This document shows, piece by piece, positions 2,024 to 48,500 of a DNA stretch of 64,000 nucleotides. The notes beneath the pieces were generated by a model, which saw only the letters and a program-made list of their open reading frames with translations, was not told where the DNA came from and did not search any database. Positions within the stretch are counted from its first letter, which is position 1. Every line of letters starts with the position of its first letter. The stretch is from the human T2T-CHM13v2.0 reference genome, Homo sapiens, in assembly GCF_009914755.1 (NCBI RefSeq), contig NC_060947.1; one strand, 5' to 3'. The position numbers and the translations under genes are program-made.

Positions 2024-3286
2024 TGCCCAACTACAACACCCAACCTGCCCCTCGCCCCATATGCTACAAACAAACTTTGTATATAATCCTCCCAGAGAGA
2101 GTGATATATTTAAATTTTTGAAATGACAATTAATTCAGTGCTACTAGCATTTTATTTAAATTAAGTTGTTTTTAGGTGATAAGTCACAAGATTTTGCTTT
2201 AGTCATTGTTGGAAAGGGTGTATTCTTGTATGTGGTAACCTTAGTATGTATTTTACAAGCCACGTTATAAAAACTTTTCCCTCTTCAGAAGGAATATTTT
2301 AATGATGTTTTATTTGCCTCCCAAACTCTTTCATTGTTTTGTGTTTCCATTGTATATACATATCAATCGGAGTCACAGGGAGAGAAGTATCATAACAGGA
2401 CATCTAAAAAATTGGCTACCTTTTAGTAGTAAGCATTCCCTTATTAGGGCAAAATATAAGTCATTGCTTTTCTCAGAGACTTGGAATTGGAGAGCTCCAG
2501 GCTGTGAGGAACCTGACTTTACTTTTGGAAGCCTCACTGTTCTCATTGCTAAAGTGGTAGTGATAATAAAATCTACTTCTTAAATTGTGTGAAGATTAGA
2601 TGAGATAATATACCAAAAGTGGTTACTACTGGGCACCAAGGAAGCTTTTAATAGATGGTGGCCTCTGGAAAAGAAGGTAGTAATATGTGTATAACATTAG
2701 GTACCTCCTGTAATTTATGGACCTTTTTTTAAGAAGAGTTATATACTTAAGTCTTTGTAATTTAGGATATATATATGTCACACACACACACATACGTATG
2801 TATATGTAGTTGTTAAATTGATTTTTGTAAAAAAAAGATGAGGGTTGTTAAGTGTATTCTGAATAGAGAGAAGAAACAGAATGAGTGATAAAATGTCAAT
2901 ATCTGCTGTGAGAATTGAAGTTGTAATTATCCCAGGGGAGAATCCCTCCATTTAGAAGTTGTAGTAATAGTAATAGTACTAGTAGTAGTGAGGCTTAGTA
3001 AGAAGATGGGAGAAGCTCCCCATGTTAACATTTTAATATTATAAAAATTTTCCTCTTTTTCATATTTCTATATCTTGTGGATAGGTAACTATTAGTTTAT
3101 TGAAAGAAAGATCAGTGAGACTCTTAAAAGGTTTCATGTTGTTTTGGGTCTACTATGAGATGTAGATATTTTTAAATATATACAATTGCTACAGCCCCAG
3201 GAAATGTTAAAGTGCTTTATAGACAGTCTCACTTAATATTTAGGAAAGAGTCAGGTTTAACAAGTCCACATTAAATTGAGGATTTG

Positions 3287-6200
3287 CAAAAAATTCTTTG
3301 AAATAAAACAGAGACACAACATACCAAAATCTCTGAGATGCAGCAAAAGCAGCATTAAGAGGAGTTTATAGTGCTAAACACCTCAAAAAGTTAAAAAGAT
3401 CTCATTAACAATCTAATGTCACACCTAGAGGAACTAGAAAAACAAGAAAAAACTAACCCCAAAGCTAGCAGAAGAAAATACATAATTAAAGTCGGAGTGG
3501 AAGTGAATGAAATTGATACACAAAAATTCATACAGAGGATCAACAAAGTCAAAAGTTACTTCTTTGAAAGGATAAACAAAATCGATAGACCATTAGCTAG
3601 ATTAACAAAGGAAAAAAAGGGAGAAGATCCAAATAAGCGCAATCTGAAAAGGCAAAGGTGACATTACAAATAATCCCATGTAAATACAAAAGATCCTCAG
3701 AGACTATTATGAACAACTCTAGATGCAGAAACTAGAAGATCTAGAGGAAATGGATACATTCCTGGAAACAAACATTCTCCTAAAATTGAATTAGGAAGCA
3801 ATTGAAACCCTGAACAGACCAACATTAAGTTCCAAAATTGAATAAGTAGTGAAAAACCTACCAACCTAAAGAAGACCTGGACCAGATAGAGTCACAATTG
3901 AATTCTACCAGACATACAAGAAGAGCTTATACCAATTCTACTGAAACTATTCCAAAAAAATCAAGGAGGAAGGACTCCTACCTAACTCATTCTATGAATC
4001 CGATGAATCCAGCATCACCCTGATAACAAAACCTGGCAAAGACACAATGAAAAAAGAAAACTTCAAGCCACTTATGATGAACATAGATGCAAAAGTCCTC
4101 AACAAAATACTAGCGAAACAAATTCAACAGCACATCAAAAAGTTAATTTGCCATGATCAAGTAGGTGCCATTACTGGGATGCAAGGATAATTCAACATAT
4201 GCAAATCACTAAATGTGATTCAACACATAAAAAGAATTTTAAAATATATGATCATCTCAACAGCTGCAGAAAAAGCTTTTGATAAAGTATACCATCCATT
4301 TATCATAAAACCACTCAAAAAATCATTTCTTAGTTATCAAAGGAAAATACCTGAAAATAATAACAGCCATATATCTATAACAAACCCACAGCCAACACTG
4401 TACTGAATGGGCAAAAACTGGAAGCATTTCCCTTGAAAACTGGAACAAGACAAGGATACTCACTCTCACCACTCCTATTCAACACAGTACTGGAAGTGCT
4501 AGCAAGAGCTATCAGGCAAGAGAAATAAATAAAAGGCAACCAGATAGGAAAAGAAGTCGTCAAACTATCTCTCTTCATGGAAAATATGATTCTATACATA
4601 GAAAACCCTGTAGATTCCACCAAAAGGCTCCTGGAACTGATAAATGACTTCAGTAGTGTTTCAGAATACAAAATCAGTGTACCAAAATCAGTAGTATTTA
4701 TATACACCAATGATATTCAAGCTGAGAGCCAAATCAAGAACACAATCATATTTACAGGGCTGGGCATGGTGGCTCGCCAAAGCAGGAGGATCACTTGAGC
4801 TGAGGAGTTCAAGACCAGCCTGGGCAATATAGTGAGATCCCATATCTATAAAGTAAATAAATGAAAAAAAGTTCCATTTACAATAGCTGCAAAAAAATAC
4901 CTAGGAATACATCTAATCAAGGGGGCAAAAGATCTCTACAAAGAGATCTGCAAAACACAGCTAAAAGAAATAATAAATGACACAGTAGAAAAACATTTCA
5001 TGTGCATGGATTGGACGAATCAATTTTGGTAAAATGGATACACTGCCCAAAGCAATCTATAGATCCAATGCTATTCCTCTCAAACTACCAACATTATTTT
5101 GCTCAGAATTGGAAAAAAAAAAACTATTCTGAAATTCGTATGGTGCCCCAAAAGAGCCAGAATAGCCAAAGCAATCCTAAGCAAAAAGAACAAAGCTGGA
5201 GGCATCACATTACCTGACTTCAAACTATACTACAAGGCCACAGTAACCAAAACAGCATGGTTCTGGTGAAAAAACAGACACACAGACTGATAGAACAGAG
5301 TAGAGAACCCAGAAATAAAGCCACAGACTTACAGCTATTTAATCTTCAACAATGCCAACAAAAATAAGGAATAGGGAAAGGATTACCTATTCAATAAATA
5401 GTTTGGGGATAGCTGGCTATCCATATGCAGAAGAATGAAACTGGACCCCCACTTTTCACCATGTAGAAAACTTAAGATGGATTAAATATTTACATGTAAG
5501 ACCTCAAACTACAAGAATCATAGAAGAAAACCTGGTAATTACCCTTCTTACCATTGGCCTTGGGAATTTATGACAAAGTCCTCAAAAGCAATTGCAGCAA
5601 AAACAAAAATTGACAAGTGAGACCTAATTAAACTAAAGAGCTTCTGCACAGCAAAAGAAACTATCAACAGAGTAAGCAGACAACCTACAGAATGGGAGAA
5701 ACTATTCACAAACTCTGAATCTGACAAAGGTGTAATATCCAGAAATCTGTAAGGAACTTAAACACATTGAACGAGCAAAAAACAAAGAACCCCCTTAAAA
5801 AGGTGCAAAAGACATAAACAGACACTTTTCAAAAGAAGACATACAAACAGCCAACAAACATATGAAAAAATGCTTATCATCACTAATCATCAGATAAATG
5901 CAAATCAAAACCACAATGAAATACCATCTCACACCCGTTAGAATGGTGATTATTAAAAAGTCAAAAAACAACAGATCTTGGCAAGGCTGTGTAGAAAAGG
6001 AGATGCTTATACACTTTTGGTGAGAATGTAAATTAGTTCAGTCAGTGTGGAAAGCTGTTTCAAGATTTCTCAAATTATTAGAAACCATTTGACCCAAGAA
6101 TCCCATTACGGGGTATATATTCAAATGAAAACAAATTGTTCTACCAAAAAACCACACGCACTTGTATGTTCATCACAACAGTATTTACAACAGCAACGAC

Positions 6201-6642: not shown

Positions 6643-9139
6643 AAATGAGGATTTGGCTTCCAGTATGAATCCCATTCTTTTGTTGTTTCAGTGTGAAGAT
6701 AACTTTTTAAAATGACTGCCTTTGGCGTTTGTCTTATGCTACAGGTGTGTGACACATTTGTTTATGTGAGGAGGTGTCAAGAAAAGTGGGTTCTCAGATA
6801 TGGTTAAATCTGCATCGCTAAACCTGCTTGGGGTTTGTACAATTTAAAATATGCTCAGCTTAACAATTAGATATCTATACTTTGGATTACAAGTGCCTGG
6901 ATATCATTATCTGTTTAAATATTTGATATTTGGTTTTTTAGATGTATTTAAAAATATTCCAGGGATGTGTGCATGTGTGTTTTTTACATTGTGATAATTT
7001 TACATTAGACTTTATTTGGAACTATTATCAGATACAAGATAATTAATGTGTCTTTCAAAGCTTTTTTTCCAGTAGGAGAGATTACGGTTATGATTTAAAA
7101 TGAAGTGTGTGGAATGAAGAAGATCTGGAGTCTGGTTCATATTAAAACATCCCTGTTAACAAATAATTCAGCCTAGCGTTGTGTCTAAAATAGAGCCTCA
7201 GAGAATACATGCAGCTTCATTGATACAAGTAAATACCTGCTTTATGAAGCTCTAGTCTTAACAATGTTAAAGATTTAAATATGATATTGAAGGCCATTGT
7301 GGAATTAAAAAAAAAAAACGAGGTCAACTTATTGTATTCTAGATATACTTTAATTTCTAAATGGATTTAAAATGAATAGTATGGATCTGAAGTCCGTCTA
7401 TACAGCAGGAAATAGGTAAGTAATTACAGCTTGCAGTAGAGTTACTTGGAGTGGTAAATGATTTTATTGGAGGTCAAATAGCTGTCAAGAGATAACAGCT
7501 CATATTAGGTTCTCACAGTGTGTACCTTTTTTGGAATATAGAGAAAGCAGGTGCTTATTGTGCAAAAGTTATCAGCTGAGGCTGATTTTTTTGTGGGGGA
7601 GGGTGTGAAAGGTGGTAAAATGTTTGATTCCAAAGTAAAATAACAGATTTGGGCGACTCTGATTACTTAACCTAATATACTGTTTCTCTGTAATAAAGTG
7701 ATATCTAACTGTTCAGAAATTAAAACTGACATTTCAGGTGTCTCCTATAATATATAACACCGCATATGTCTTTAAGTCAAATCCAGACTTCTTTCTTGTT
7801 GAAAAACTATGTTCTAGCTGCCTAGGTAAGTTAGTATAGACCTAGCAAACAGAGCAGTAGGTTTCAGTATTTTTTGCAGTTCACTGAGTGAAGATTAATT
7901 ATATAAATGAAAGGTGCTGGTGTAATTGTATAGTCTTATTTGAAAACCACAGTACGTGAAATTGAGCCTGTTTTAAAGGGGCTCTGTGTGTGTGTAGGTA
8001 TGTGTGGATAGAGTTTTCTGAGTTTAAGGAATTTTTGTAAATAAACAACACAGACCTATATTCTTGCTGTTGCTAAATTGTGGTTTATATTTTAGAGAGC
8101 TAATATCTGTAGTATGATAGAACTGTGGTTAAGAAACCTAATGCCATTTGTGTCAGGGCTATTTCATTGCTTTTTCCATCTCAGGGAAATCAAATGCAAC
8201 TTGAGGCAAAAGAGTGGAAATTAATGATATACTGAGATAATATGTGTTTGCATATATCATTTTGAGGCTGTTTTGGAGAATACTTTAGGTGGTCCATAGA
8301 TAGGCAGATGGGGGTTTTTAAGTACATAAGCTGTAAATCAATCCATTCAGTCAGATCATTTAACTTATATGGAAGAAAGATGAGGAACAATACTACATTT
8401 TTATGTGCAGAAATAACATCAGTTATTTAACATTCCCTTTTTGGCTCGTTAACAGCTTGTGGGTAGACGTAGCCCTGGATTATTATTACTTGGTTACCTC
8501 AGGATATTGACCAGAGGAAATGGACAGGAAAATGGCAGAAAGATCTAGGGAATGAAGTACTCATTTGAAAAAACAGTCAAAAGGAACAAATTATCAATTA
8601 TTTGAGAATGAGTTCTTGGAAATTAGTTTATATGTTTTTGAAAGCAGTAGCAAAAGCAGAGGATTTATTTATTGGTACCATTCTAGTTCCAAAAAGGATT
8701 ACAAAGTAGATGGGTTACTTATCTTGGTAATATGGGTTTTAGATCAAGGTGAGTTGAGGGGGAGAATGGGGAGAAACTGCTTCTCTTACTGCAAAGTTTC
8801 CTCTCAACTTTAGCTCTGGACTTGCTCTCACCCTCCAGGGGTAACTTGTTCATCTCCCGGTTGACTAATATGTACTTGGGCAGCTCAGTGGGGGACTGCA
8901 TGATCTTTTCAGTTCCAGTCTCTAATGTTGGTATCAAGCATTTTCATTATTGATCAAGTTATCTCATTTAGGTGCCTGTATCCTAGTAAAAAGTATCTTG
9001 CCTCAGTAATAGTCTGTACATGTAAGCATTTAAGCTTTTAGTATGTTATAGGTCTTAATATCAGTGTTACTGTACATATTAAATAACATTTTGCCTTAAA
9101 GCTCTAATTTAGACTAAAACTTGTATTATCTTTTTTTAG

Positions 9140-38172: not shown

Positions 38173-38861
38173 TACTACATTTTCTTGATCTACTCATTAG
38201 TGGATGGACATTTAGGTTGGTTCCATAGTTTTGCAATTGTGAATTTTGCTACAATAAACATATACATACAAGTGTATTTTTGATATAATTACTTCTTTTT
38301 CTTTGGGTAGATATGCAGTAGTGGGATCACTTCATTGAATGGTAGATCTACTACTTTTAGTTCTTTAAGAATTATCCATACTATTTTCCATACAGGTTGT
38401 ACTAATTTACATTGTCACCAACAGTGTTTAAGCATTCCCTCTTCACCACATCCACATCAACATCTCTTATTTTTTGACTTTTTAATAATGGCCTTTCTTG
38501 TAGGGGTAAGGTGGTATCAGATTGTGGTTTTAATTTGCATTTTCCTGATGATTAGTGATGTTGAGTATTTTTTCATGTTTTTTGGCCATTTGTATTTTGT
38601 ATATCTTCTTTTGAGAAATGTCTGTTCATGTCATTTGCCCACTTATTGATGGGACTTTTTTTTTTTGCTGATTTGTTTGAGTTCCTTGTATATTCTAGAT
38701 ATTGGACCTTTGTTGGATGCATAGTTTGCAAATATTTTCTTTCATTTTATTCATTATCTGTTTACTGTGATTATTACTTTTGCTGTGCAGAAACTTTTTA
38801 GTTTAATTAGGTCCCATTTATTTATTTTTGTTTTTGTTGCATTTGCTTTTGAGGTCATATT

Positions 38862-39371
38862 TGTTGGGAACAGGCCCCAAAATCTGGCTATGAACTGGCG
38901 CCAAAACTGGCCATAAACAAAATCTCTGTAGCACTGTGACATGCTCATGGTGACCTTGACACCCACGCTAGAAGGTTGTTGGTTTACTGGAATGAGGGCA
39001 AGGAACACCTGGCCCACCCAGGGCAGAAAACCACTTAAGGCATTCTTAAACCACAAACAATAGCATGAGCTATCTGTGCCTTAAGGACATGTTCATGCTG
39101 CAGATAACTAGCCAGAGCCCATCCCTTTACCTCGGCCCATCCCTTTATTTCCCATAAGGAATACTTTTAGTTAACTTATAATCTATAGAAACAATGCTTA
39201 TCACTGGCTTGCTGTCAATAAATATGTGGGTAAATCTCTGTTCAAGGCTCTGAGCTCTGAAGGCTGTGAGACCCCTGATTTCCCACTCCACAATCTATAT
39301 TTCTGTATGTGTGTCTTTAATTCCTTTAGTGCCGCTGGGTTAGGGTCTCCCTGACCGAGCTGGTCTTGGCA
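38862..39371 (+). mobile_element. 5' LTR (MER9-like)
   Basis: tgttgggaacaggcccc...ctggtcttggca; AATAAA at ~39217; direct repeat of 45025-45526. Confidence 0.92.
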
Positions 39372-39373
39372 AG

Positions 39374-39392
39374 TGGTGCCCATACATGGGGC
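39374..39392 (+). promoter_or_regulatory. Primer binding site, tRNA-Lys type (degenerate)
   Basis: tggtgcccatacatggggc 2 nt after the LTR, resembling TGGCGCCCAACGTGGGGC. Confidence 0.75.
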
Positions 39393-39943
39393 TTGAACCC
39401 AGGTCGAAGGGTTGCCAGAGCGACAGTTGGAGAATGTGGAACTAAGCTGGAGGACACATGAGTACTCTTAAAGCAATCCCCGCGGTGAGTAAGAAAGGGA
39501 GCTTGGAAGCATCAAGGTAACAATGGGACAAGTGTGAGCTCTGGTTCTTTCCACCTTGGAACCTTTTCACACTAATGATGAGGAAGAAGGAAAGTGTAAT
39601 GAGTAACAGAAGAGGTGACAGAGCAGGTTTGTTTGCCAGCTAAAGCTATAGTGGCAAAGGAGGGAGAGGTTCATCCCTACCCTTCTGTACCCCCTCCTTA
39701 TTTTGAAGAAAAAGAGTGGCCTGGCCCTCCAGATCTTTCTTTTCCAGAGGATACTGGGTGAAAAGTAGTTGCCCCAGTGACTGTTCGAGCAGAGCCTCAA
39801 GCGACCGCTCTCAGTTCTATTCAGGCAGGAATTCAGCGAGCTAGATGAGAGGGTTATTTAGAGGCTTGGCAGTTCCCTGTTAGAATACACCCCCCAGATC
39901 AACAGAGAAATATTATAGCTACATTTGAGCCTCTTCCTTTTAA

Positions 39944-40678
39944 ATTTGGGAAACCCATGAGGGGCCCGTCCCTGGCCCCGTTCCAAACCGAGGCATTTCT
40001 GGCTCAGGCCATTCCCTCACGTCTGTACAATGTCTGTCCCCCACCACAGCCAGTAGTGCTACAGTAGATTTTTGCTGCACAAAAACTGTGAGCCTTCTGC
40101 CTGGGGAACTCCCACAAAAAGTTCCAACAGGGGTCTGTGGACCCTTGCTAGCGGGGACGATAAGATTACTTTTAGGAAGGTCTAGTTTAAATTTAAAAGG
40201 GGTACAAATACAAACAGGAGTCATTGATTCAGATTACAATGGGGAAATTCAAATTGTTATATCTACTTCTGTTCCCTGTAAAGCAGAGCCAGGAGAGCGT
40301 ATAGCACAGCTCCTGATTGTGCCGTATATGGAAACGGGGAAAAGTGAAATTAAACTAACAGGAGGATTTGGAAGCACAACTAAACAAGGCAAAGCAGCTT
40401 ACTGGGTGAATCAAATTACTGATAAACATCCTACCTGTGAAATAACTATTCAGGGAAAGAAATTTAAAGGTTTTGTAGATACAGGAGCAGACATTTCAAT
40501 TATTTCTCTACAGCACTGGCCATCCACTTGGCCAGTTCAACCCACTCAATTTAACATAGTTGGAGTTGGTAAAGCCCCTGAAGTATATCCAAGTAGTTAT
40601 ATTTTGCCTTGTGAAGGGCCTGATGAACAACCTGGGACTATTCAACCAATTATAACTTCTATACCTATAAATTTATAG
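39944..40678 (+). pseudogene. Retroviral pro frame: dUTPase plus aspartic protease
   Basis: Open from the GGGAAAC slippery site (39948-39954); dUTPase motifs GRSS, GVIDSDYNGEI, IAQL, GGFGST; protease VDTGAD; TAG replaces the W before the GRDLL-like motif. Confidence 0.88.
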
Positions 40679-41369
40679 GGAAGTGATTTATTGCAATGCT
40701 CAGTTATGATTTCATACAGTTGAACAACTGATGACAAAAACAAAAAAGAGGGAGAAACAGGGATTACAGGACAGCCCATATGTAATTGAATCTAACATTA
40801 TTATCTTTAAACTTTTTTTTTTTTTTTTTTTTTTTTACTCATCCATGTTTCTGTTTATATACAGGATAACAAATTCAGGAACAATGGGAAAGTAATATAT
40901 GAAACCTTAATAGGAAATACAATAGAGATTACAAAACACTACCATTTGATTTTTTATGCAAATACTTCAATCTTCCAATATTTTTACTCACTTGCTAAAT
41001 AAAGCACATGACTCGAAATCCTAAATAATTCTGTTAGTCTAAATCTTTTAAAGAATAAAATGTTGGTGAAAAACCAAAATTGTTTAGTAAGGTATGTATG
41101 ACCTTGTTTATTATCTATCATAGACATGAAGATGATCATAGTTAATACCAATTTAAGCTTTACAGAATACTGTTTTAGGCCCAATATTGATATGTTAAAT
41201 GAAGGTATCAGAGAATCTTGTATTTATGGCATCAGGTTATAAAGATCTATTCAAAACCATTTTTGTCAAAGTTTAAACACTGGAGCAAAAGTCAAATTGT
41301 TTCTAAATGAGACACAAAATGATTCTTGCTAATAATACAAATTTTGTCCCATGGGTAATACTATTGTCT

Positions 41370-41580
41370 TTTTCTTTTTTAAAAAAATTTTTGATTTTTA
41401 TTTTAGATTCAGGGAACACATGGGCAGGTCTGTTAGCTGGGTATACTGTGTGATGTTGAGGTTTGGGGTATGGATGATCCTGTCACCCAGGTAGTGAGCA
41501 GAGTCCCCAGTAGGTAGTTTTTCAGCTCTTGCTCCCGCTCCCCAACCTACCTCCCCAGTGTCTATTATTCCCATGGGTCC
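41370..41580 (-). mobile_element. Short L1PA15/16-like 3' fragment within the TERF1 3' UTR copy
   Basis: Reverse complement resembles the L1 3' end at 6500-6630; imperfect TSD ggtaatactattgtc/ggtattactattttc. Confidence 0.7.
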
Positions 41581-41783
41581 TCAGGTATTACTATTTTCAA
41601 ATTTTTTTCTTTACATGAAACTACTGAAAGCAAAAGTATGTCATGCTTATAGGTCACTCTGTACATTTATCATTCTATTAATAAACATCTTAAATAATTA
41701 TGTAGTATATTAAGGCCATAAACCAAATCATTATCTCCTATCAAAGGACTACTGTTATTCAATCATCTAGAAAATTCATTTTA

Positions 41784-42074
<291 letters not shown>

Positions 42075-43667
42075 TCATTTTAATGGGTTATGTTACAGGG
42101 TTGAGGTCAGCCTACAGACACAAAATAGGTTAACTGAAAAATTTTTTTTTTGTATCAGGTTTTAATTTTTTCATTGAAACAGGATTTGGTGGTGGGGATA
42201 CTAAATGTGGCAGGGTTCAACAAATTTACATTTTATCAAAATAAAGTTCTTAAAGAATACAATGATAGCATATGCTTTAACTCTTATAGCACAAACCCAC
42301 ATATTAATTGATGGTCACAGAAAAATACTGTAATGGTTTAAACAAAAGTTTTAAAATACATCAATGACACAAGTTTCAAACAAAATGCAGTGATCAAAAT
42401 ACTTAACTGTCCTTTCATCAAGCTTTTACAAACACAATCAGTCTTCACTGTCTAAGCAAATCAGTTTTAGTTTCTTCATGGTCCTCCATCTGTCTTTTAA
42501 TATGACACTTGTCCGGTTGTTGAATTATAATGCAATAGTATTTTAGACCAGTTTCCCTCTCCATGTTTCCTCACGCCAGATCTCAAATTCTTGTCTTCTT
42601 CCCAAAGCCATGCTTGTTTTTTTTTAGCTTGATGTTTTTCAGGAGTTACCAGTTGACTCTTTGAAATAGGTATTCTGCTTTCAGTGGCTCTTCTGCTTTC
42701 TTTTTTCTTTTTTGTACTTTGAAGAGTTCCTACTCTCCTTTCTTTCTTATTAAGGTCTTGTTGCTGGGTTCCATGTTGCAACTTAGATAAGAAAAGATTC
42801 TTGTGAGACCTTTTTCTTGTATCCAAATTAGCTTCAGTTTCCATTTCAACATCATTACCATTAGGTTTATCTTGAGAAATTATTGTTCTTGTTCTTTTAC
42901 TTTCTACTACTTTTGCTGCTGCCTTCATTAGAAAGGTTGATGATTTTTCACTTAGCACATAATTCACATAACTCTTAATTTTCTCCATCATGTGATTGTA
43001 GCTGAAGTGTTGAAAAAAGGAATGAAATGTATCTTTCTGAGAGATTATCATAAGCAATTTGCTTTTGAGAGGCATATAAGAATTTGGATCACCAAATATT
43101 CTTTCAAAGACTTCTTCTGCTTCTGTAAAGTTGTCATTTTCCATACAAACAGCTATAGCCTGAATTTTAATTAAATTCTATATTTCTTCATGAAGTTTGT
43201 CATGTTCCTTTTCAATTGAACCCCAAATCATCAGGGCTGATTCCAAGGGTGTAATTCGTTCATCATTTTCAAACTGTACATCAAGGGTTTTTCCTGCTGC
43301 AATGCTTGTCAAAAACTGACATATGCATATTGTTCTCAACTGGTAAGCTGTTAGACTGGATAGTCCATGAATAATAGCCTCTGCGCTGTTGCGGGTCCGG
43401 CAGAAGTCCTCAGGGCGGCCGTCGCGGAAAGCTCAGCAAAGAGAGAGGCAGAGGAAATCGAGCATCCAGCCAGCAGCCACAGCCTCGGCCTCAGCCACCA
43501 GGCCCGGGTCCTCCTCCTCCTCCTCGGGGGCTCCCACCTGCACCCAGCACTCGAGCAGTTCCTGGCACTCGAACTGCTCCTCGTCGTTTCTCTCTGTTTC
43601 TGCCATCTGCTCCTCAGTAGGGTTGGCATCCCTACCATCTGCACAGCCCCAAGGGCTCGGGGCCCAG

Positions 43668-45000
43668 CTTTAAATTTTTTGAGCCTTCCTAAAAGCCAGA
43701 TGTTATCAGCAGCTGAACAGCATCTACAGAAACCAGCTGCAAAGACAGAAGCAGAACAACTGGTTTGGTGGAAATATCCAATACCAAAAAGTTGAGAAAT
43801 CGGTAAAATAATAACTTGGGGTAGAGGTTATGCTTGTGTTTCTCCAGGCCAAAATCAACACTGATTTGGATACCCTCAGGACACCTGAAACCTTATCATG
43901 AACCAGATGCTGAGGAAGAGATTCTGGGAGGATCCCGAGTACCCCCCAGTTGCAGTCATGTCAAGACTGATGCTCAGGAGGATCCCAACTGTCATGAGCA
44001 ACACCCATCGAACACAGCCATCCACCTGGGAACAGATCAAGAAGCTGTCACAGATGGTGGGAGAAAACCTGAGGAAAGCGGGACAACCAGTCACAATGAG
44101 TAATTTAATGGTAGCTATGATAGCAGTGATCACCATTGCCGTGAGTATTCCTTCAACAAGGGCTGACACAGAGATCAGTTATACTTATTGGGCATATTTG
44201 TCAATTTTGGCTGGCAATAATGCCTGGATATAATCACTTTATGACACAGTTACACATGCTTTCTGGTCTCAATATTTACCATAATAAGTCTGCTCCTATA
44301 ATTGAGGCATACCACCCTCAAAAATCTATTTGTAAACAAAATTGAACCTGGCCAGAAAAAATGAATGTACTTTTTTAGGAAGGTTGCATTGCAGAACAGG
44401 CAGAGGTGCTGCACAACGATTCCTATGGAATCATTATTGATTGGTCCCCTAAGGGGATGTTTAGCTTGAATTGCACCTCTTAGTCTGCATGTCACAGCCA
44501 CACTGTGTTCAACTGGTCTGAACAGAATGGTCAGATGGTACAAATGGTAAGACGTATGGCAAGAGTTCCTATTATCTGGAACCATGGCAGTATAGGGGCA
44601 CCTCAACCTCAAATGATATGGCCCATTGTAGGAGCTAAACATAAGGATTTGTGGCAACTGTTAATAGCTCTTAATAAGATCAAAATTTGGGAAAGAATAA
44701 AAAAGCATCTAGAAGGACACTCTGCAAACTTGTCTTTGGATATTGCAAAATATATATATATATTTAAAGCATCCCAGGCACACCTGACCTTAATGCCAGA
44801 ACTGGAGTGCTCGAAGGAGCTGCAGACAGATTAGCAGCTAGTAACCCATTAAAATGGATAAAAACACTTAGAAGCTCTGTGATTTCAATGATGATTGTGC
44901 TTTTAATCTGTGTTGTTTGTCTTTATATAGTCTGCAGATGCTGATCTTGACTCCTGTGAGAAGTAGCTCACCGTGACAAAGCTGCCTTTGCTTTTATCGC
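43668..45000 (+). pseudogene. HML-3 integrase C-terminus and deleted env remnants
   Basis: LNFLSLPKSQMLSAAEQHL...WW; ITWGRGYACV; env leader TQPSTWEQIKKL...YTYWAY; TM piece WERIKKHLEGH. Confidence 0.8.
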
Positions 45001-45024
45001 TTTGCAAAACAAAGAAGGGGGACA

Positions 45025-45526
45025 AGTTGGGAACAGGCCCCAAAATCTGGCCATAAACTGGCCCCTAAACTGGTCATAAACAAAATCTCTGCAGCACTGT
45101 CACATGCTTGTGATAGCCTGACGCCCACGCTGGAAGGCTGTCGGTTTACCGGAATGAGGGCAAGGAACAGCTGGCCCACCCAGGGCGGAAAACCACTTAA
45201 GGCATTCTTAAACCACAAACAATAGCATGAGCTATCTGTGCCTTAAGGACATGTTCATGCTGCAGATAACTAGCCAGAGCCCATCCCTTTACCTCGGCCC
45301 ATCCCTTTATTTCCCATAAGGAATACTTATAGTTAATCTATAGAAACAATGCTTATCACTGGCTTGCTGTCAATAAATATGTGGGTAAATCTCTGTTCAA
45401 GGCTCTCAGCTCTGAAGGCTGTGAGACCCCTGATTTCCCACTCCACAATCTATATTTCTGTGTGTGTGTCTTTAATTCCTGTAGCGCCGCTGGGTTAGGG
45501 TCTCCCCGACCGAGCTGGTCTCGGCA
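45025..45526 (+). mobile_element. 3' LTR (MER9-like), preceded by PPT aaaacaaagaagggggac
   Basis: Direct repeat of the 5' LTR, ends in ca followed by the TSD. Confidence 0.92.
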
Positions 45527-48500
45527 CATATTCATAAATTATTTGCCTGGGCCAATGTCCAGAAGAATTTTTCATAGTTTTTCTACTAGAATTTTAATGT
45601 TTTCATGTCTTAAATTTAAGTATTTGATCCATCTTGAGTTGATTTTTATAAAAGGTGAGATATAGGGATCCAGTGTCATTCTTCTACATGTGGATATCCA
45701 GTTTACCCAGCATGATTTATTAAATAGAGTGTCTTTTTCTCAATTTATATTTTTGTATGCTTTGTTGGAGATCAGTAGGTTGTAGGTGTTAGGCTTTATT
45801 TCTGGGTTCTCTATTCTATTCCATTTGTGTATCTACTTTTATGCCAGTACTGTGATGTCTTGGTAACTGTAGTCTTGTAGTATAATTTGAAGTCAGGTAA
45901 TGTTATGGCTCCAGATTGGCTATTTTTACTTAGGACTGCTTTGGCTGTTTGTACTCTTGTGGTTCCCTATGAATTTTAGGATTAACTTTTTAAATCTCTA
46001 AAAAATAATGTTGGTATTTTGATAAGAATTACATCGAATCTGTAGATTGCTTTGAGCTGTATTCTCATTTCCGCTATATTGATTCTTTCAATCCATGAGC
46101 ATGGGATGTGTTTTCATTTGTGTCCTCTACGATTTCTTTTAGTACTTTTGTAGTTGTCATTGTAGAGCTCTTTTACCCCATTGGTTAAGTATATTCCTAG
46201 GTGTTTTTTTTTTTTTTTTTTTTTTTTTTTGTAGCTATTGTAACAGGGATTGAGTCCCTGATTTCCTTCTCAGCTTGGTCATTGGTTATAGCAGGGCTAC
46301 TGATTTGTGTATACTGATTTTGTAACTTGAGACTACTGAATTCATTTATCAAATATAGTTGTCTTTTGGAGGAGTCTTTAGGGATTTCTACATATAAAAT
46401 CCTATCATTGGCAAACAGGAATATTTTCACTCCTTCTTTTCCAATTTGAATAACCTTTATTTCTTTCTCTTGCCTGATTGCTCTGGCTATGACTTCCAGT
46501 ACTATGTTAAATAGAAGTAGTGAAAGTGGCCATCATTGACTTGTTCCAGTTCTCAGCGGGAATGCTTTCAACTTTTCCTGATTTACTATGATAAAGTCTG
46601 TGGGTTTGTCATATATGGCTTTTATAATTTTGAGGTATGTCCCTTCTATACTTAGTTTGTTAAGGATTTTTATATTAAAGTTATGCTGGAATTTATTGAA
46701 TGCTTTCTCTGAATCTATTAAGATGATCATATGGTTTTTGTTTTAATTCTGTTTATGTGATGTATCACATTTATTGACTGACTTGTGTTAAACCATTCCT
46801 GCATCCCTAGGATGAAACCCACTTTACCATAGCGTATTATCTTTTTTGAGGTGCTGTTGGATTCAGTTTGCTAGTATTTTTGTGAGGTTGTTTGCATCTG
46901 TGTCCATCAGGGATATTGGTCTGTCATTTTTTTTGTTGTTTTTATGTTCTTTACTGGTTTTTGTATCAGGGTGATACTGGTTTCATCAAATGAGTTAGGG
47001 AAGTTTCCCTGTTAATCTTTTGTAATAGTTTCAGTAGGATTGGTACCAATTCTTCTTTGAATGTCTGGTATAATTCAGCTGTGAATCATCTGGAGCTGGG
47101 CTTTATTTTTGGCAATTTTTAACTTACTGATTCAGTCTCGCTGCTTGTTAATGGTCGTTCAGGGTATATATTTCTTCCTGATTTAATCTAGGAAGGCCAT
47201 ATGTTTCAAGGAATTTATTCATTTCCTCTAGATTTTCTAGTTTGTGTGCATAGAGGTGTTCACAGTAGTTTCAAATGATCTTTTGTATTTCTTTGGTGTC
47301 AGTTTTAATGTCTCCATTTTCATTTCTAATTGAGCTTATTTGAATCTTCTCTCTTCTTTTCTTGGTTAATCTACCTAATGCTCTATCAACTTTTTTAATC
47401 TTTCCAAATAATCAAGTTTTCGTTTTGTTGATCTTTTTGATTTCATTTTATTTTTGTTTCAGTGTCATTAGTTGTGTTCTGATCTTTGTTATTTCTTTTC
47501 TTCTGCTGGCTTTTAGTTTGGTTCATTATTGTTTTTCTAGTTCCTTGAGGTGTGACCTTAGGTTGTCAATTTGTGATGTTTCAGATTTTTTGATGTAGGC
47601 ATTTAGTACTATAGACTTTCCTTTTAGCACTGCTTTTGCTGTAACTCAGGGATTTTGATAACCTGTGTCATTATTATTAATCATTTTGAATAATGTTTAA
47701 ATTTCCATCTTGATTCCATTGTTAACCCAAAAGTCAGTCAGGAGCAGATTGTTTAATTTTCATGTATTTGTATAGTTTTGAGGGTTCCTTTCAGAGTGGA
47801 TTGCTAGTTTTATTCCACTGTGTTCTGAAAAGTTACTGGGTATGATTTCAATTTATTAAAATGTTTTGAGACTTGTGGCCTATTATATGCTCTATTTTGG
47901 ACAATGTTTTATGTGCTGATGAAAAGAAAGTATATTCTGTTGTTCTTGGGTAGAAGTTCTGTAAATATCTGTTAGGTCCATTTGTTCTGGAGTGCAGCTT
48001 AAATTCAGTGTTTCTTTGTTGACTTTCTGCCTTGAGGATCTGTCCAGTGCTGTCAGTGGAGTGCTGAAGTTCCCCACTATTATTGTGTTGCTGTCTATGT
48101 TTTTTCTTAGGACTAGTAGTAATTGTTTTATGAATCTAGGATCTCCAGAGTTAGGTGCATGTATATTTAGGATTGTAATTTTTTTTTGTGGGATTGATCC
48201 TTTTATCATTTCATCATGACTTTCTTTGTATTTTTTTATTGTTGTTGCTTTAAAGTTTGTTTTATCTGATACAAGAATAGATACTCCTGCTCTCTTTTGG
48301 TTTCCATTTGCATTTAGTATATATTCTATCCCTTGTACCTTGAGTCTATATGAGTCCTTACATATTAGGCGAGTCTCTTGAAGATAGCATACATTTGGTT
48401 TGTGATTTTTAAACTCTATTCTGCCAATCTGTTATCTTTTAAGTGGAGCATTTAGGCCATTTATATTCAAGGTTAATGTTGGAGTGTGAGGTGCTGTTCT

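What the first reader, a model, noticed from the sequence alone, without database searches (positions are those of the whole stretch)
38856..45532. Gutted HERV-K(HML-3) provirus carrying an antisense TERF1 cDNA: candidate retroviral vector for a telomere gene
Seen in sequence: the provirus keeps both LTRs, the PBS, the PPT and a perfect 6-bp TSD (catatt), but has lost most of gag, pol and env, leaving ~3.8 kb of viral sequence. A ~2.85-kb TERF1 retrocopy with its own poly(A) and ~13-bp TSD sits in the integrase remnant, giving ~6.7 kb in total. Because the cargo is antisense, its own poly(A) site would not cut short an LTR-to-LTR transcript. Established knowledge: several dispersed TERF1 pseudogenes exist in humans, and ERV transduction of a host gene has been described for FAM8A1. 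Inference: L1 may have inserted TERF1 once into an HML-3 provirus, which helper virus then re-mobilised, so that several TERF1 pseudogenes are one virus-amplified family. This window alone cannot separate that from a single insertion into a provirus already fixed here.
Basis: partly seen in the sequence, partly recalled or inferred. Interest (0 to 1): 0.8.

Follow-up and report, generated by a model that had tools for sequence, protein, structure and literature searches.

The report
TERF1 pseudogene nested in old provirus
A dead, intron-less copy of the telomere gene TERF1 was pasted by the L1 machinery into an old, already defective endogenous retrovirus on the X chromosome; it is an ordinary nested insertion, found only here, not a virus-spread gene family.

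Summary
There are two LTRs (38862-39371 and 45025-45526) and a 6-bp target duplication (catatt). About 3.8 kb of betaretrovirus-like sequence remains. A 2.85-kb antisense, intron-less TERF1 retrocopy sits in the integrase remnant, with a poly(A) tail and a 13-bp duplication of proviral sequence.

- In the whole T2T genome, only this locus spans either TERF1/provirus junction.
- None of 13 other TERF1-derived loci fetched with flanks holds any sequence like this provirus.
- Copies with readable ends have their own target duplications, flanks and 5' truncations.
- The chr13/18/21 copies are one retrocopy spread by segmental duplication.
- The gene tree is a star around the parent gene.

Other HML-3-like copies carry the uninterrupted target site. 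The cargo shows all L1 hallmarks, so it is not a template-switch transduction of the FAM8A1 type. Its reading frame is broken.

Divergence dating cannot order the two events: the TERF1 branch is 0.023 and the LTR half-divergence is 0.029. Primate orthologues could not be examined.

Verdict: an ordinary nested processed pseudogene (TERF1P7), of low interest.

The parts
38856..38861 (+). left copy of the 6-bp proviral target-site duplication (catatt)
   Evidence: identical to 45527-45532
38862..39371 (+). 5' LTR (510 nt, TG...CA; AATAAA at 39217)
39372..39946 (+). leader with a primer-binding-like site (TGG... 2 nt after the LTR) and the 5' part of gag. It ends at deletion D1, which removes about 860 nt of capsid-to-nucleocapsid sequence relative to the comparison copy.
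   Evidence: the D1 junction is also spanned by 17 other loci
39949..40696 (+). dUTPase and retroviral protease remnant. It ends at deletion D2, which removes about 1.7 kb from the protease end through RT into RNase H and is private to this locus.
   Evidence: Pfam PF00692 at 1.2e-18 and PF00077 at 9.6e-19; mapping; 0 of 39 other scored loci span the D2 junction
40697..40805 (+). short RNase H and integrase remnant. It includes the shared deletion D3, about 640 nt, at roughly 40735.
   Evidence: the block is contiguous in 39 of 39 other scored loci
40806..40818 (.). left copy of the 13-bp L1-type target-site duplication, made of proviral integrase sequence (tttaaaCtttttt)
40819..40836 (-). poly(A) tail of the TERF1 retrocopy. 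It reads as a T-run on the + strand and merges with the T's of the duplication (24 T's in all, 40813-40836).
40837..43667 (-). TERF1 processed pseudogene (TERF1P7). It has nine exon blocks, the 60-nt cassette exon is skipped, and the complete 1.78-kb last exon with its 3' UTR, including its Alu and L1-like piece, is present. The 5' end lies at parent position C8:73437947. The reading frame is broken.
43668..43680 (.). right copy of the 13-bp L1-type target-site duplication (tttaaaTtttttt)
43681..45024 (+). integrase C-terminal remnant, env remnant (the N-terminal, Rec-like part at 43889-44233) and a purine-rich tract next to the 3' LTR
   Evidence: Pfam PF15695 at 1.9e-06; collinear with the comparison copy over 43668-45528
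45025..45526 (+). 3' LTR (502 nt; AATAAA at 45372)
45527..45532 (+). right copy of the 6-bp proviral target-site duplication (catatt)

Best explanation
Two unrelated retroelement events are nested at one X-chromosome site.

1. A betaretrovirus-like (HERV-K-type, by name HML-3) provirus integrated and made the 6-bp duplication. It was already a defective variant, because its gag deletion (D1) and integrase-region deletion (D3) are shared with other loci. A further 1.7-kb pol deletion (D2) is private to this copy.

2. Later, or at an indistinguishable time, the L1 endonuclease/reverse transcriptase nicked a T-rich site inside the integrase remnant. It then copied a polyadenylated, spliced TERF1 mRNA of the cassette-exon-skipped isoform into it by target-primed reverse transcription. 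This left a poly(A) tail and a 13-bp duplication of proviral DNA. The orientation is antisense by chance.

The copy has since decayed and is a dead pseudogene (TERF1P7). Nothing indicates that the composite element ever moved again.

Shown: the anatomy, the L1 hallmarks, uniqueness of both junctions in this genome, and independence of the other TERF1 copies. Inferred: the order of the two events and the L1 enzyme as the agent.
For: Processed-pseudogene hallmarks:
- Nine exon blocks are joined at the parent's GT/AG boundaries, and the whole last exon is collinear over 1786 nt at 96.75% identity.
- A poly(A) tail is present.
- The two 13-nt flanks map to the same 13 nt (positions 8928-8940) of the comparison copy.
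- In 5 of 5 paralogous proviral copies where both sides aligned, the target occurs once and is uninterrupted.

Junctions are unique to this locus:
- 1 of 40 scored hits spans the 5' junction. Of the rest, 5 are TERF1-only and 34 are provirus-only.
- 1 of 40 spans the 5' junction.
- 1 of 40 spans the 3' junction. Of the rest, 10 are TERF1-only, including the parent, and 29 are provirus-only.
- 1 of 31 spans the 3' junction, and all 31 candidates were scored.

The other TERF1 loci are independent:
- 0 of 10 ten-kb loci and 0 of 3 further loci of 6-7.6 kb show any similarity to the viral parts.
- Five have different 5' truncations, starting at positions 1224, 1292, 1595, 2221 and 2481 of the retrocopy.
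- The chrX:82.18M and chr4:139.68M copies have their own 16-19-nt duplications and unrelated flanks.
- The chrX:82.18M copy retains a 60-nt cassette exon that the window copy lacks.
- The chr13, chr18 and chr21 copies share their entire 10-kb flanks at 96.6-98% identity, so they are a segmental duplication.
- In the ML tree the window copy has an end branch of 0.023. Its nearest row is the parent gene, and it joins no supported clade with any other retrocopy.

The pseudogene is dead:
- Its 5' end lies downstream of two in-frame ATGs of the parent.
- It has 9-nt and 1-nt deletions and premature stops at codons 61 and 146 of the 392-codon frame.
- It has 26 nonsynonymous and 16 synonymous codon changes.

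Background rate: 518 human retrocopies are flanked by LTR elements, and only 3 lack L1 hallmarks (passage in the Methods and Results of PMC5131818).
Against: The order of events is not proven.
- The TERF1 lineage divergence is 52-73 derived substitutions in 2824 sites, or 1.8-2.6%. The ML end branch is 0.023.
- This overlaps the per-lineage LTR divergence: K2P 0.058 / 2 = 0.029, and non-CpG 0.043 / 2 = 0.0215, with a 95% range of about +/-1%.
- So a cargo older than the integration is not excluded.

LTR dating is itself shaky. 18 of 27 LTR differences fall in the first 130 nt.

Defective variants of this provirus family did spread. D1 is spanned in 17 other loci and D3 in at least 39. Trans-mobilisation of defective genomes is therefore plausible for the family in general.

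The genome search scores only the best 40 candidates. It covers one human assembly. No other primate genome could be searched.
Confidence: 0.9

Rival explanations
1. The composite arrived here as a unit. L1 inserted TERF1 into a source HML-3 provirus elsewhere. An LTR-to-LTR transcript of that composite was packaged by helper virus and integrated here. The source and all siblings were later lost or never fixed.
For: - Both LTRs, a primer-binding-like site, a purine tract and the leader are kept.
- Dating does not exclude a cargo as old as the integration.
- Deleted variants of this provirus family occur at many loci, which is compatible with complementation in trans.
Against: - No sibling exists: only the window spans either junction.
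- 0 of 13 fetched TERF1 loci have viral context.
- The private D2 deletion is found nowhere else among scored hits (0 of 39).
- The proviral-sense strand of the cargo carries 4 AATAAA and 1 ATTAAA hexamers, which could cut short a genomic transcript.
- It needs several extra unobserved events compared with an in-situ insertion.
- Point estimates put the cargo slightly younger than the LTRs (0.023 against 0.029).
Confidence: 0.05
2. Several human TERF1 pseudogenes are one family amplified by the virus from this or a sister composite.
For: - Three full-length copies (the window, chrX:82.18M and chr4:139.68M) start at exactly the same parent base, C8:73437947.
- Most copies have similar divergence from the parent, 2.3-4.2%.
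Against: - The two copies with the same 5' end have their own L1-type duplications, poly(A) tails and non-viral flanks.
- One of them comes from a different splice isoform.
- No viral sequence lies within the fetched flanks of any of 13 loci.
- The tree is star-like, with the window copy nearest to the parent.
- The only supported retrocopy clade, chr13/18/21, shares 10-kb flanks, so it is a DNA-level duplication.
Confidence: 0.01
3. Retroviral capture by template switching during reverse transcription, as in FAM8A1-type LTR-mediated retroposition, without L1.
For: The host mRNA copy sits between two LTRs of one element.
Against: The criteria come from PMC5131818 (passages read) and are not met here.
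- L1 hallmarks should be absent, but a poly(A) tail and a 13-bp duplication are present.
- The flanking LTR element should be discontinuous by more than 20 bp, but here it is continuous and duplicated.
- The mRNA is usually partial, but here the copy is near full length with its entire 3' UTR.
Confidence: 0.01

Closest known systems
L1-mediated processed pseudogenes nested in older repeats. For TERF1 these include the other retrocopies found here, for example at chrX:82.18M, chr4:139.68M, chr6:103.83M and chr15:75.17M of this assembly.
   Same: Intron-less, polyadenylated, with a 13-bp target duplication at a T-rich site, decayed coding frame, and independent origin from the chr8 parent.
   Different: Only the landing site differs: the integrase remnant of a provirus rather than other DNA.
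FAM8A1 capture by HERV-K and LTR-mediated retroposition. Sources: Jamain et al. 2001, seen only as a citation; Tan et al. 2016, PMC5131818, passages read.
   Same: A host mRNA copy lies between the LTRs of an endogenous retrovirus.
   Different: Those cases lack L1 hallmarks. They show microsimilarity at the fusion points, and the virus is discontinuous there. Here the L1 hallmarks are complete and the viral sequence is continuous across the insert.
HERV-K(HML-3) / HERVK9 proviruses with MER9a LTRs. The family-to-name table is in PMC5753468. An age of about 35 Myr is given in PMC5142424, citing Mayer and Meese 2002.
   Same: Paired 0.5-kb LTRs, a 6-bp duplication, dUTPase-protease arrangement and an env N-terminus resembling HERV-K Rec. 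Hundreds of related loci exist at 84-95% identity.
   Different: This copy has an extra private 1.7-kb pol deletion and the TERF1 insert. The HML-3 name itself was not tested here, for lack of a repeat library. A locus called HML3_Xq13.3 is named in PMC9318874, but its coordinates were not seen.

Membership tests
L1-mediated processed pseudogene | Spliced: exons joined exactly, no introns, with a parent gene with introns elsewhere | tested here: met
   Nine exon blocks lie on chr8 across about 39 kb. GT/AG-consistent boundaries were resolved for all 8 junctions.
L1-mediated processed pseudogene | Poly(A) tail at the 3' end of the copy | tested here: met
   A T-run of 24 on the + strand at 40813-40836, of which about 18 lie beyond the duplication.
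L1-mediated processed pseudogene | Target-site duplication of about 7-20 bp flanking the copy plus its tail | tested here: met
   13 nt with 1 mismatch. Both copies map to one 13-nt stretch of the paralogous proviruses, which have it once.
L1-mediated processed pseudogene | Insertion at a T-rich L1 endonuclease-type site | tested here: met
   The target reads TTTAAATTTTTTT/G on the primed strand. The consensus it is compared with is recalled, not taken from a call.
Endogenous betaretrovirus-like provirus (HERV-K supergroup) | Two LTRs in direct orientation bounded by TG...CA, flanked by a short target duplication | tested here: met
   LTRs of 510 and 502 nt; catatt on both sides. The first base of the 3' LTR is A.
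Endogenous betaretrovirus-like provirus (HERV-K supergroup) | dUTPase fused upstream of the protease, and HERV-K-type env/Rec | tested here: met
   PF00692 and PF00077 fall in one open frame; PF15695 matches the env N-terminus.
HML-3 (HERVK9 / MER9a) specifically | Match to the family's reference LTR and internal sequences; primer-binding site for tRNA-Lys | not testable with these tools
   No repeat library is held, and the tRNA identity of the primer-binding-like site was not tested. The only support is the naming table in PMC5753468 and the locus name HML3_Xq13.3 in PMC9318874, with no coordinates.
LTR-mediated retroposition / retroviral transduction (FAM8A1 type) | No L1 hallmarks at the host-virus fusion points | tested here: not met
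   A poly(A) tail and a 13-bp duplication are present. The criteria are from PMC5131818.
LTR-mediated retroposition / retroviral transduction (FAM8A1 type) | Viral sequence discontinuous (gap of more than 20 bp) where the host sequence replaces it | tested here: not met
   The viral sequence is continuous. The left flank ends at position 8940 of the comparison copy and the right flank starts at position 8928.
Trans-mobilised cargo-carrying provirus (vector-like amplified family) | Two or more loci with identical cargo-virus junctions but different integration flanks | tested here: not met
   Only the window spans either junction. 0 of 13 fetched TERF1 loci have viral context.
Trans-mobilised cargo-carrying provirus (vector-like amplified family) | Cargo at least as old as the integration (cargo divergence >= LTR per-lineage divergence) | tested here: inconclusive
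   The TERF1 lineage is at 0.018-0.026, with an ML end branch of 0.023. The LTR per-lineage figure is 0.029, or 0.0215 for non-CpG sites. The ranges overlap.

The most novel reading that the evidence does not exclude
This composite integrated here as a unit. On that reading it is the only surviving product of a defective HERV-K-type genome that carried an L1-delivered host cDNA through one round of helper-dependent retroviral replication. Divergence dating does not exclude this, and deleted variants of the same provirus family clearly did spread to many loci.
Probability: 0.04. Interest if true: 0.6.

Novelty: already known. Interest (0 to 1): 0.1.

Why it matters
It matters little in itself. 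The pseudogene is already annotated as TERF1P7, and retrocopies landing in LTR elements are common: 518 such cases in human were filtered in PMC5131818. The useful result is negative. The dispersed human TERF1 pseudogenes are independent L1 products of the chr8 gene, plus one segmental-duplication trio. They are not a retrovirus-amplified family, so this locus gives no evidence that an endogenous retrovirus ever shuttled a telomere gene.

Tried and rejected
1. Dating to order the two events. The ranges overlap. The LTR differences are oddly clustered, with 18 of 27 in the first 130 nt, split 9 derived in the 5' LTR and 8 in the 3' LTR. A foreign conversion tract in one LTR is therefore rejected. 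Homogenisation of the remaining part by LTR-LTR conversion, or rate heterogeneity, stays open. I do not rely on the dates.

2. A shared 5' end as a sign of common descent. Three copies start at the same parent base. They have separate duplications and flanks, and one is a different isoform, so this was rejected as evidence for viral amplification.

3. Treating all three internal deletions as private 'gutting'. Only D2 is private.

5. Literature on TERF1 pseudogenes in a retroviral context. The terms TERF1 + pseudogene + retrovirus returned 2 irrelevant papers. TERF1P7 returned 3 papers, 2 of them listed and judged unrelated from title and abstract. Nothing in print on this nesting was found by those two searches.

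For chr7 only the junction result is available: the match starts in the poly(A)/TERF1 part and has no viral part.
Full report
**Observation.**

- A 510-nt LTR (38862-39371, TG...CA) and a 502-nt LTR (45025-45526) are direct repeats, 87-97% identical by segment.
- They are flanked by identical hexamers, catatt, at 38856-38861 and 45527-45532.
- The LTRs differ by 27 substitutions and two indels. K2P is 0.058, or 0.043 without CpG sites. The run included one extra flanking base per LTR.

Pfam supports a betaretrovirus-like, HERV-K-type provirus.
- dUTPase (1.2e-18) and retroviral protease (9.6e-19) lie in one open frame at 39944-40678.
- A HERV-K Rec-like env N-terminus lies at 43889-44233.
- The more specific label HML-3 / MER9 could not be tested, because no repeat library is held.
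- PMC5753468 (table passage) equates HML3 with HERVK9I and MER9a1-3. PMC9318874 (passages) names a locus HML3_Xq13.3, without coordinates.

**The cargo.**

The minus strand of 40837-43667 aligns to nine exon blocks of the chr8 gene, spread over about 39 kb. All eight junctions were resolved to GT/AG-consistent boundaries.
- The last block is the entire 1.78-kb terminal exon (1786 aligned positions, 96.75% identity).
- The Alu and the L1-like piece inside the cargo therefore belong to the parental 3' UTR.
- A 60-nt cassette exon (C8:73459383-73459444) is skipped here. It is present in the chrX:82.18M copy.

The copy ends in a poly(A) tail, read as a T-run at 40813-40836 on the + strand. It is bracketed by tttaaaCtttttt (40806-40818) and tttaaaTtttttt (43668-43680).

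On a 7,033-nt comparison provirus (C4:179682768-179689800), the left flank ends at position 8940 and the right flank begins at 8928. Thirteen proviral bases were therefore duplicated and none was lost. In 5 of 5 paralogous copies where both flanks aligned, the 13 nt occur once and the sequence is uninterrupted.

Pfam on the comparison copy places the target between the integrase core and the integrase C-terminal domain.

These are the full hallmarks of L1 target-primed reverse transcription. The endonuclease-site consensus I compare the target with is recalled.

**State of the provirus.**

Relative to the comparison copy, three stretches are missing.
- D1, about 860 nt, capsid to nucleocapsid, at 39946/39949. 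This junction is spanned by 17 other loci at 84-92% identity (40 of 355 candidates scored).
- D2, about 1,709 nt, from the protease end through RT into RNase H, at about 40696. Up to 12 nt overlap at the junction. It is spanned by 0 of 39 other scored loci.
- D3, about 639 nt, from the RNase H end through the integrase zinc and core domains, at about 40735. The block across it is contiguous in 39 of 39 other scored loci (40 of 378 scored, a set biased towards copies that share it).

So this provirus descends from an already defective variant that reached many loci, and it carries one private deletion. Its env is collinear with the comparison copy and is not further reduced.

**Test of the vector / amplified-family idea.**

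The whole assembly that holds the window could be searched.

| Query | Candidates scored | Spanning the junction | Other scored hits |
|---|---|---|---|
| 701 nt across the 5' junction | 40 of 234 | window only | 5 stop at the TERF1 end; 34 hold only the proviral half |
| 91 nt across the 5' junction | 40 of 143 | window only | 39 hold only the proviral half |
| 801 nt across the 3' junction | 40 of 376 | window only | 10 TERF1-only (parent included); 29 provirus-only |
| 141 nt across the 3' junction | 31 of 31 | window only | 11 TERF1-only (parent included); 19 provirus-only |

Ten other TERF1-copy loci were fetched as 10-kb stretches. Three more (chr2:190.41M, chr18:12.20M, chrY:13.52M, found) were fetched as 6-7.6 kb stretches. 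None of the 13 shows any similarity to the 1,951 + 1,847 nt of viral sequence.

One more short 3' fragment, at chr7:54.67M, was seen only. Its match has no viral part.

**The other copies look independent.**
- Five are 5'-truncated at different points, starting at positions 1224, 1292, 1595, 2221 and 2481 of the retrocopy.
- The chrX:82.18M and chr4:139.68M copies have their own poly(A) tails, their own 16-19-nt duplications and unrelated flanks.
- The chr13, chr18 and chr21 copies share their whole 10-kb neighbourhoods at 96.6-98% identity, and also 14 derived substitutions. They are one retrocopy multiplied by segmental duplication.
- A maximum-likelihood tree of the ten rows of at least 1.2 kb is a star. 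The window copy has an end branch of 0.023, its nearest row is the parent gene, and it joins no supported clade. The only supported groups are the chr13/18/21 trio and parent + chrX:82.18M. The two short copies, chr1:219.92M and chr8:6.03M, were left out of the tree.

**Against my reading.**

The order of the two events is not settled by divergence.
- Polarising the 93 differences between the window copy and the parent with the other copies gives 52 derived in the window copy, 20 on the parent side and 21 ambiguous. That is 1.8-2.6%.
- The per-lineage LTR figure is 2.9%, or 2.15% for non-CpG sites, with a wide error.
- With a neutral rate of roughly 1-1.3 x 10^-9 per site per year (general knowledge), both events fall about 18-29 Myr ago.
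- PMC5142424 (passage) gives about 35 Myr for HML-3.

The LTR differences are also unevenly placed. 18 of 27 lie in the first 130 nt, of which 9 are derived in the 5' LTR, 8 in the 3' LTR and 1 is ambiguous. The LTR clock is therefore unreliable here. A unit arrival from a lost source stays possible at a few per cent.

Three further limits apply. The search tool scores only the best candidates. Only one human assembly is covered. No other primate genome could be searched.

- The claim that antisense orientation protects an LTR-to-LTR transcript is weak. The proviral-sense strand of the cargo contains 4 AATAAA and 1 ATTAAA hexamers. These are hexamers only; their use was not tested.
- The cargo is no working telomere gene. 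Its 5' end (C8:73437947) lies downstream of the in-frame ATGs at parent positions 7816 and 7924 of my numbering.
- Within the remaining 392-codon frame there are 9-nt and 1-nt deletions and premature stops at codons 61 and 146. There are 26 nonsynonymous and 16 synonymous codon changes. The longest ATG-started frame is 215 aa.

**Comparison with the known.**

The element is a member of the ordinary class of L1-made processed pseudogenes, nested in an endogenous retrovirus. It is not a member of the FAM8A1-type LTR-mediated retroposition class. As read in passages of PMC5131818, that class requires absence of L1 hallmarks and a discontinuous LTR element at the fusion points. Both were tested here and not met. 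[quoted passage not shown]

**Verdict.**

This is an ordinary, already annotated pseudogene (TERF1P7) in an old defective provirus, of low interest.

Noticed in passing
window 43664-43667; L033 about 7676; L034 about 6449 (parent C8:73437947): Three independent full-length TERF1 retrocopies begin at exactly the same parent base: the window copy, chrX:82.18M and chr4:139.68M. Each has its own target duplication and flanks, and one is a different splice isoform. That base lies 23 nt downstream of an in-frame ATG of the parent. The chr13/18/21 copy begins 22 nt further in. This suggests a discrete internal transcription start, or a strong reverse-transcription stop, in TERF1 exon 1.
   Followed up: partly
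window 38862-38991 versus 45025-45153: 18 of the 27 substitutions between the two LTRs lie in the first 130 nt (about 14% there, against about 2.4% in the rest). They are split 9 in the 5' LTR and 8 in the 3' LTR when polarised against 12 paralogous LTRs. Possible causes are LTR-LTR gene conversion of the downstream part or local rate heterogeneity. No explanation was tested.
   Followed up: partly
window 39946-39949 and about 40735; many other loci: Two internal deletions of this provirus are shared with other loci. The gag capsid-to-nucleocapsid deletion (about 860 nt) is spanned in 17 other loci. The RNase H/integrase deletion (about 640 nt) is spanned in at least 39. Defective variants of this family therefore reached many sites.
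   Followed up: partly
L049 (G000:C24:13514401-13522000), matches at about 2152-5062: A chrY locus holds four TERF1-like pieces at 74-83% identity (67-75%). They are spaced like exons, with 0.3-1.1 kb between them, unlike the intron-less copies. It may be an old DNA-level relative or a decayed, interrupted retrocopy.
   Followed up: no
window 38700-38855 and 45533-45700: From memory, the host DNA on both sides of the provirus looks like the 3' part of an L1 element. The nesting may therefore be L1 < provirus < TERF1 retrocopy, with the retrocopy carrying an Alu and an L1 piece from its parent's UTR. This was not tested.
   Followed up: no
window 42012-43667 (annotation row TERF1P7): The RefSeq model for TERF1P7 is a two-exon prediction reaching 31 kb beyond the retrocopy, to window position 75155, which lies outside the window. 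Its in-window exon stops inside the Alu of the 3' UTR at 42012. The annotated pseudogene therefore covers only about 1.66 kb of the 2.85-kb retrocopy.
   Followed up: no
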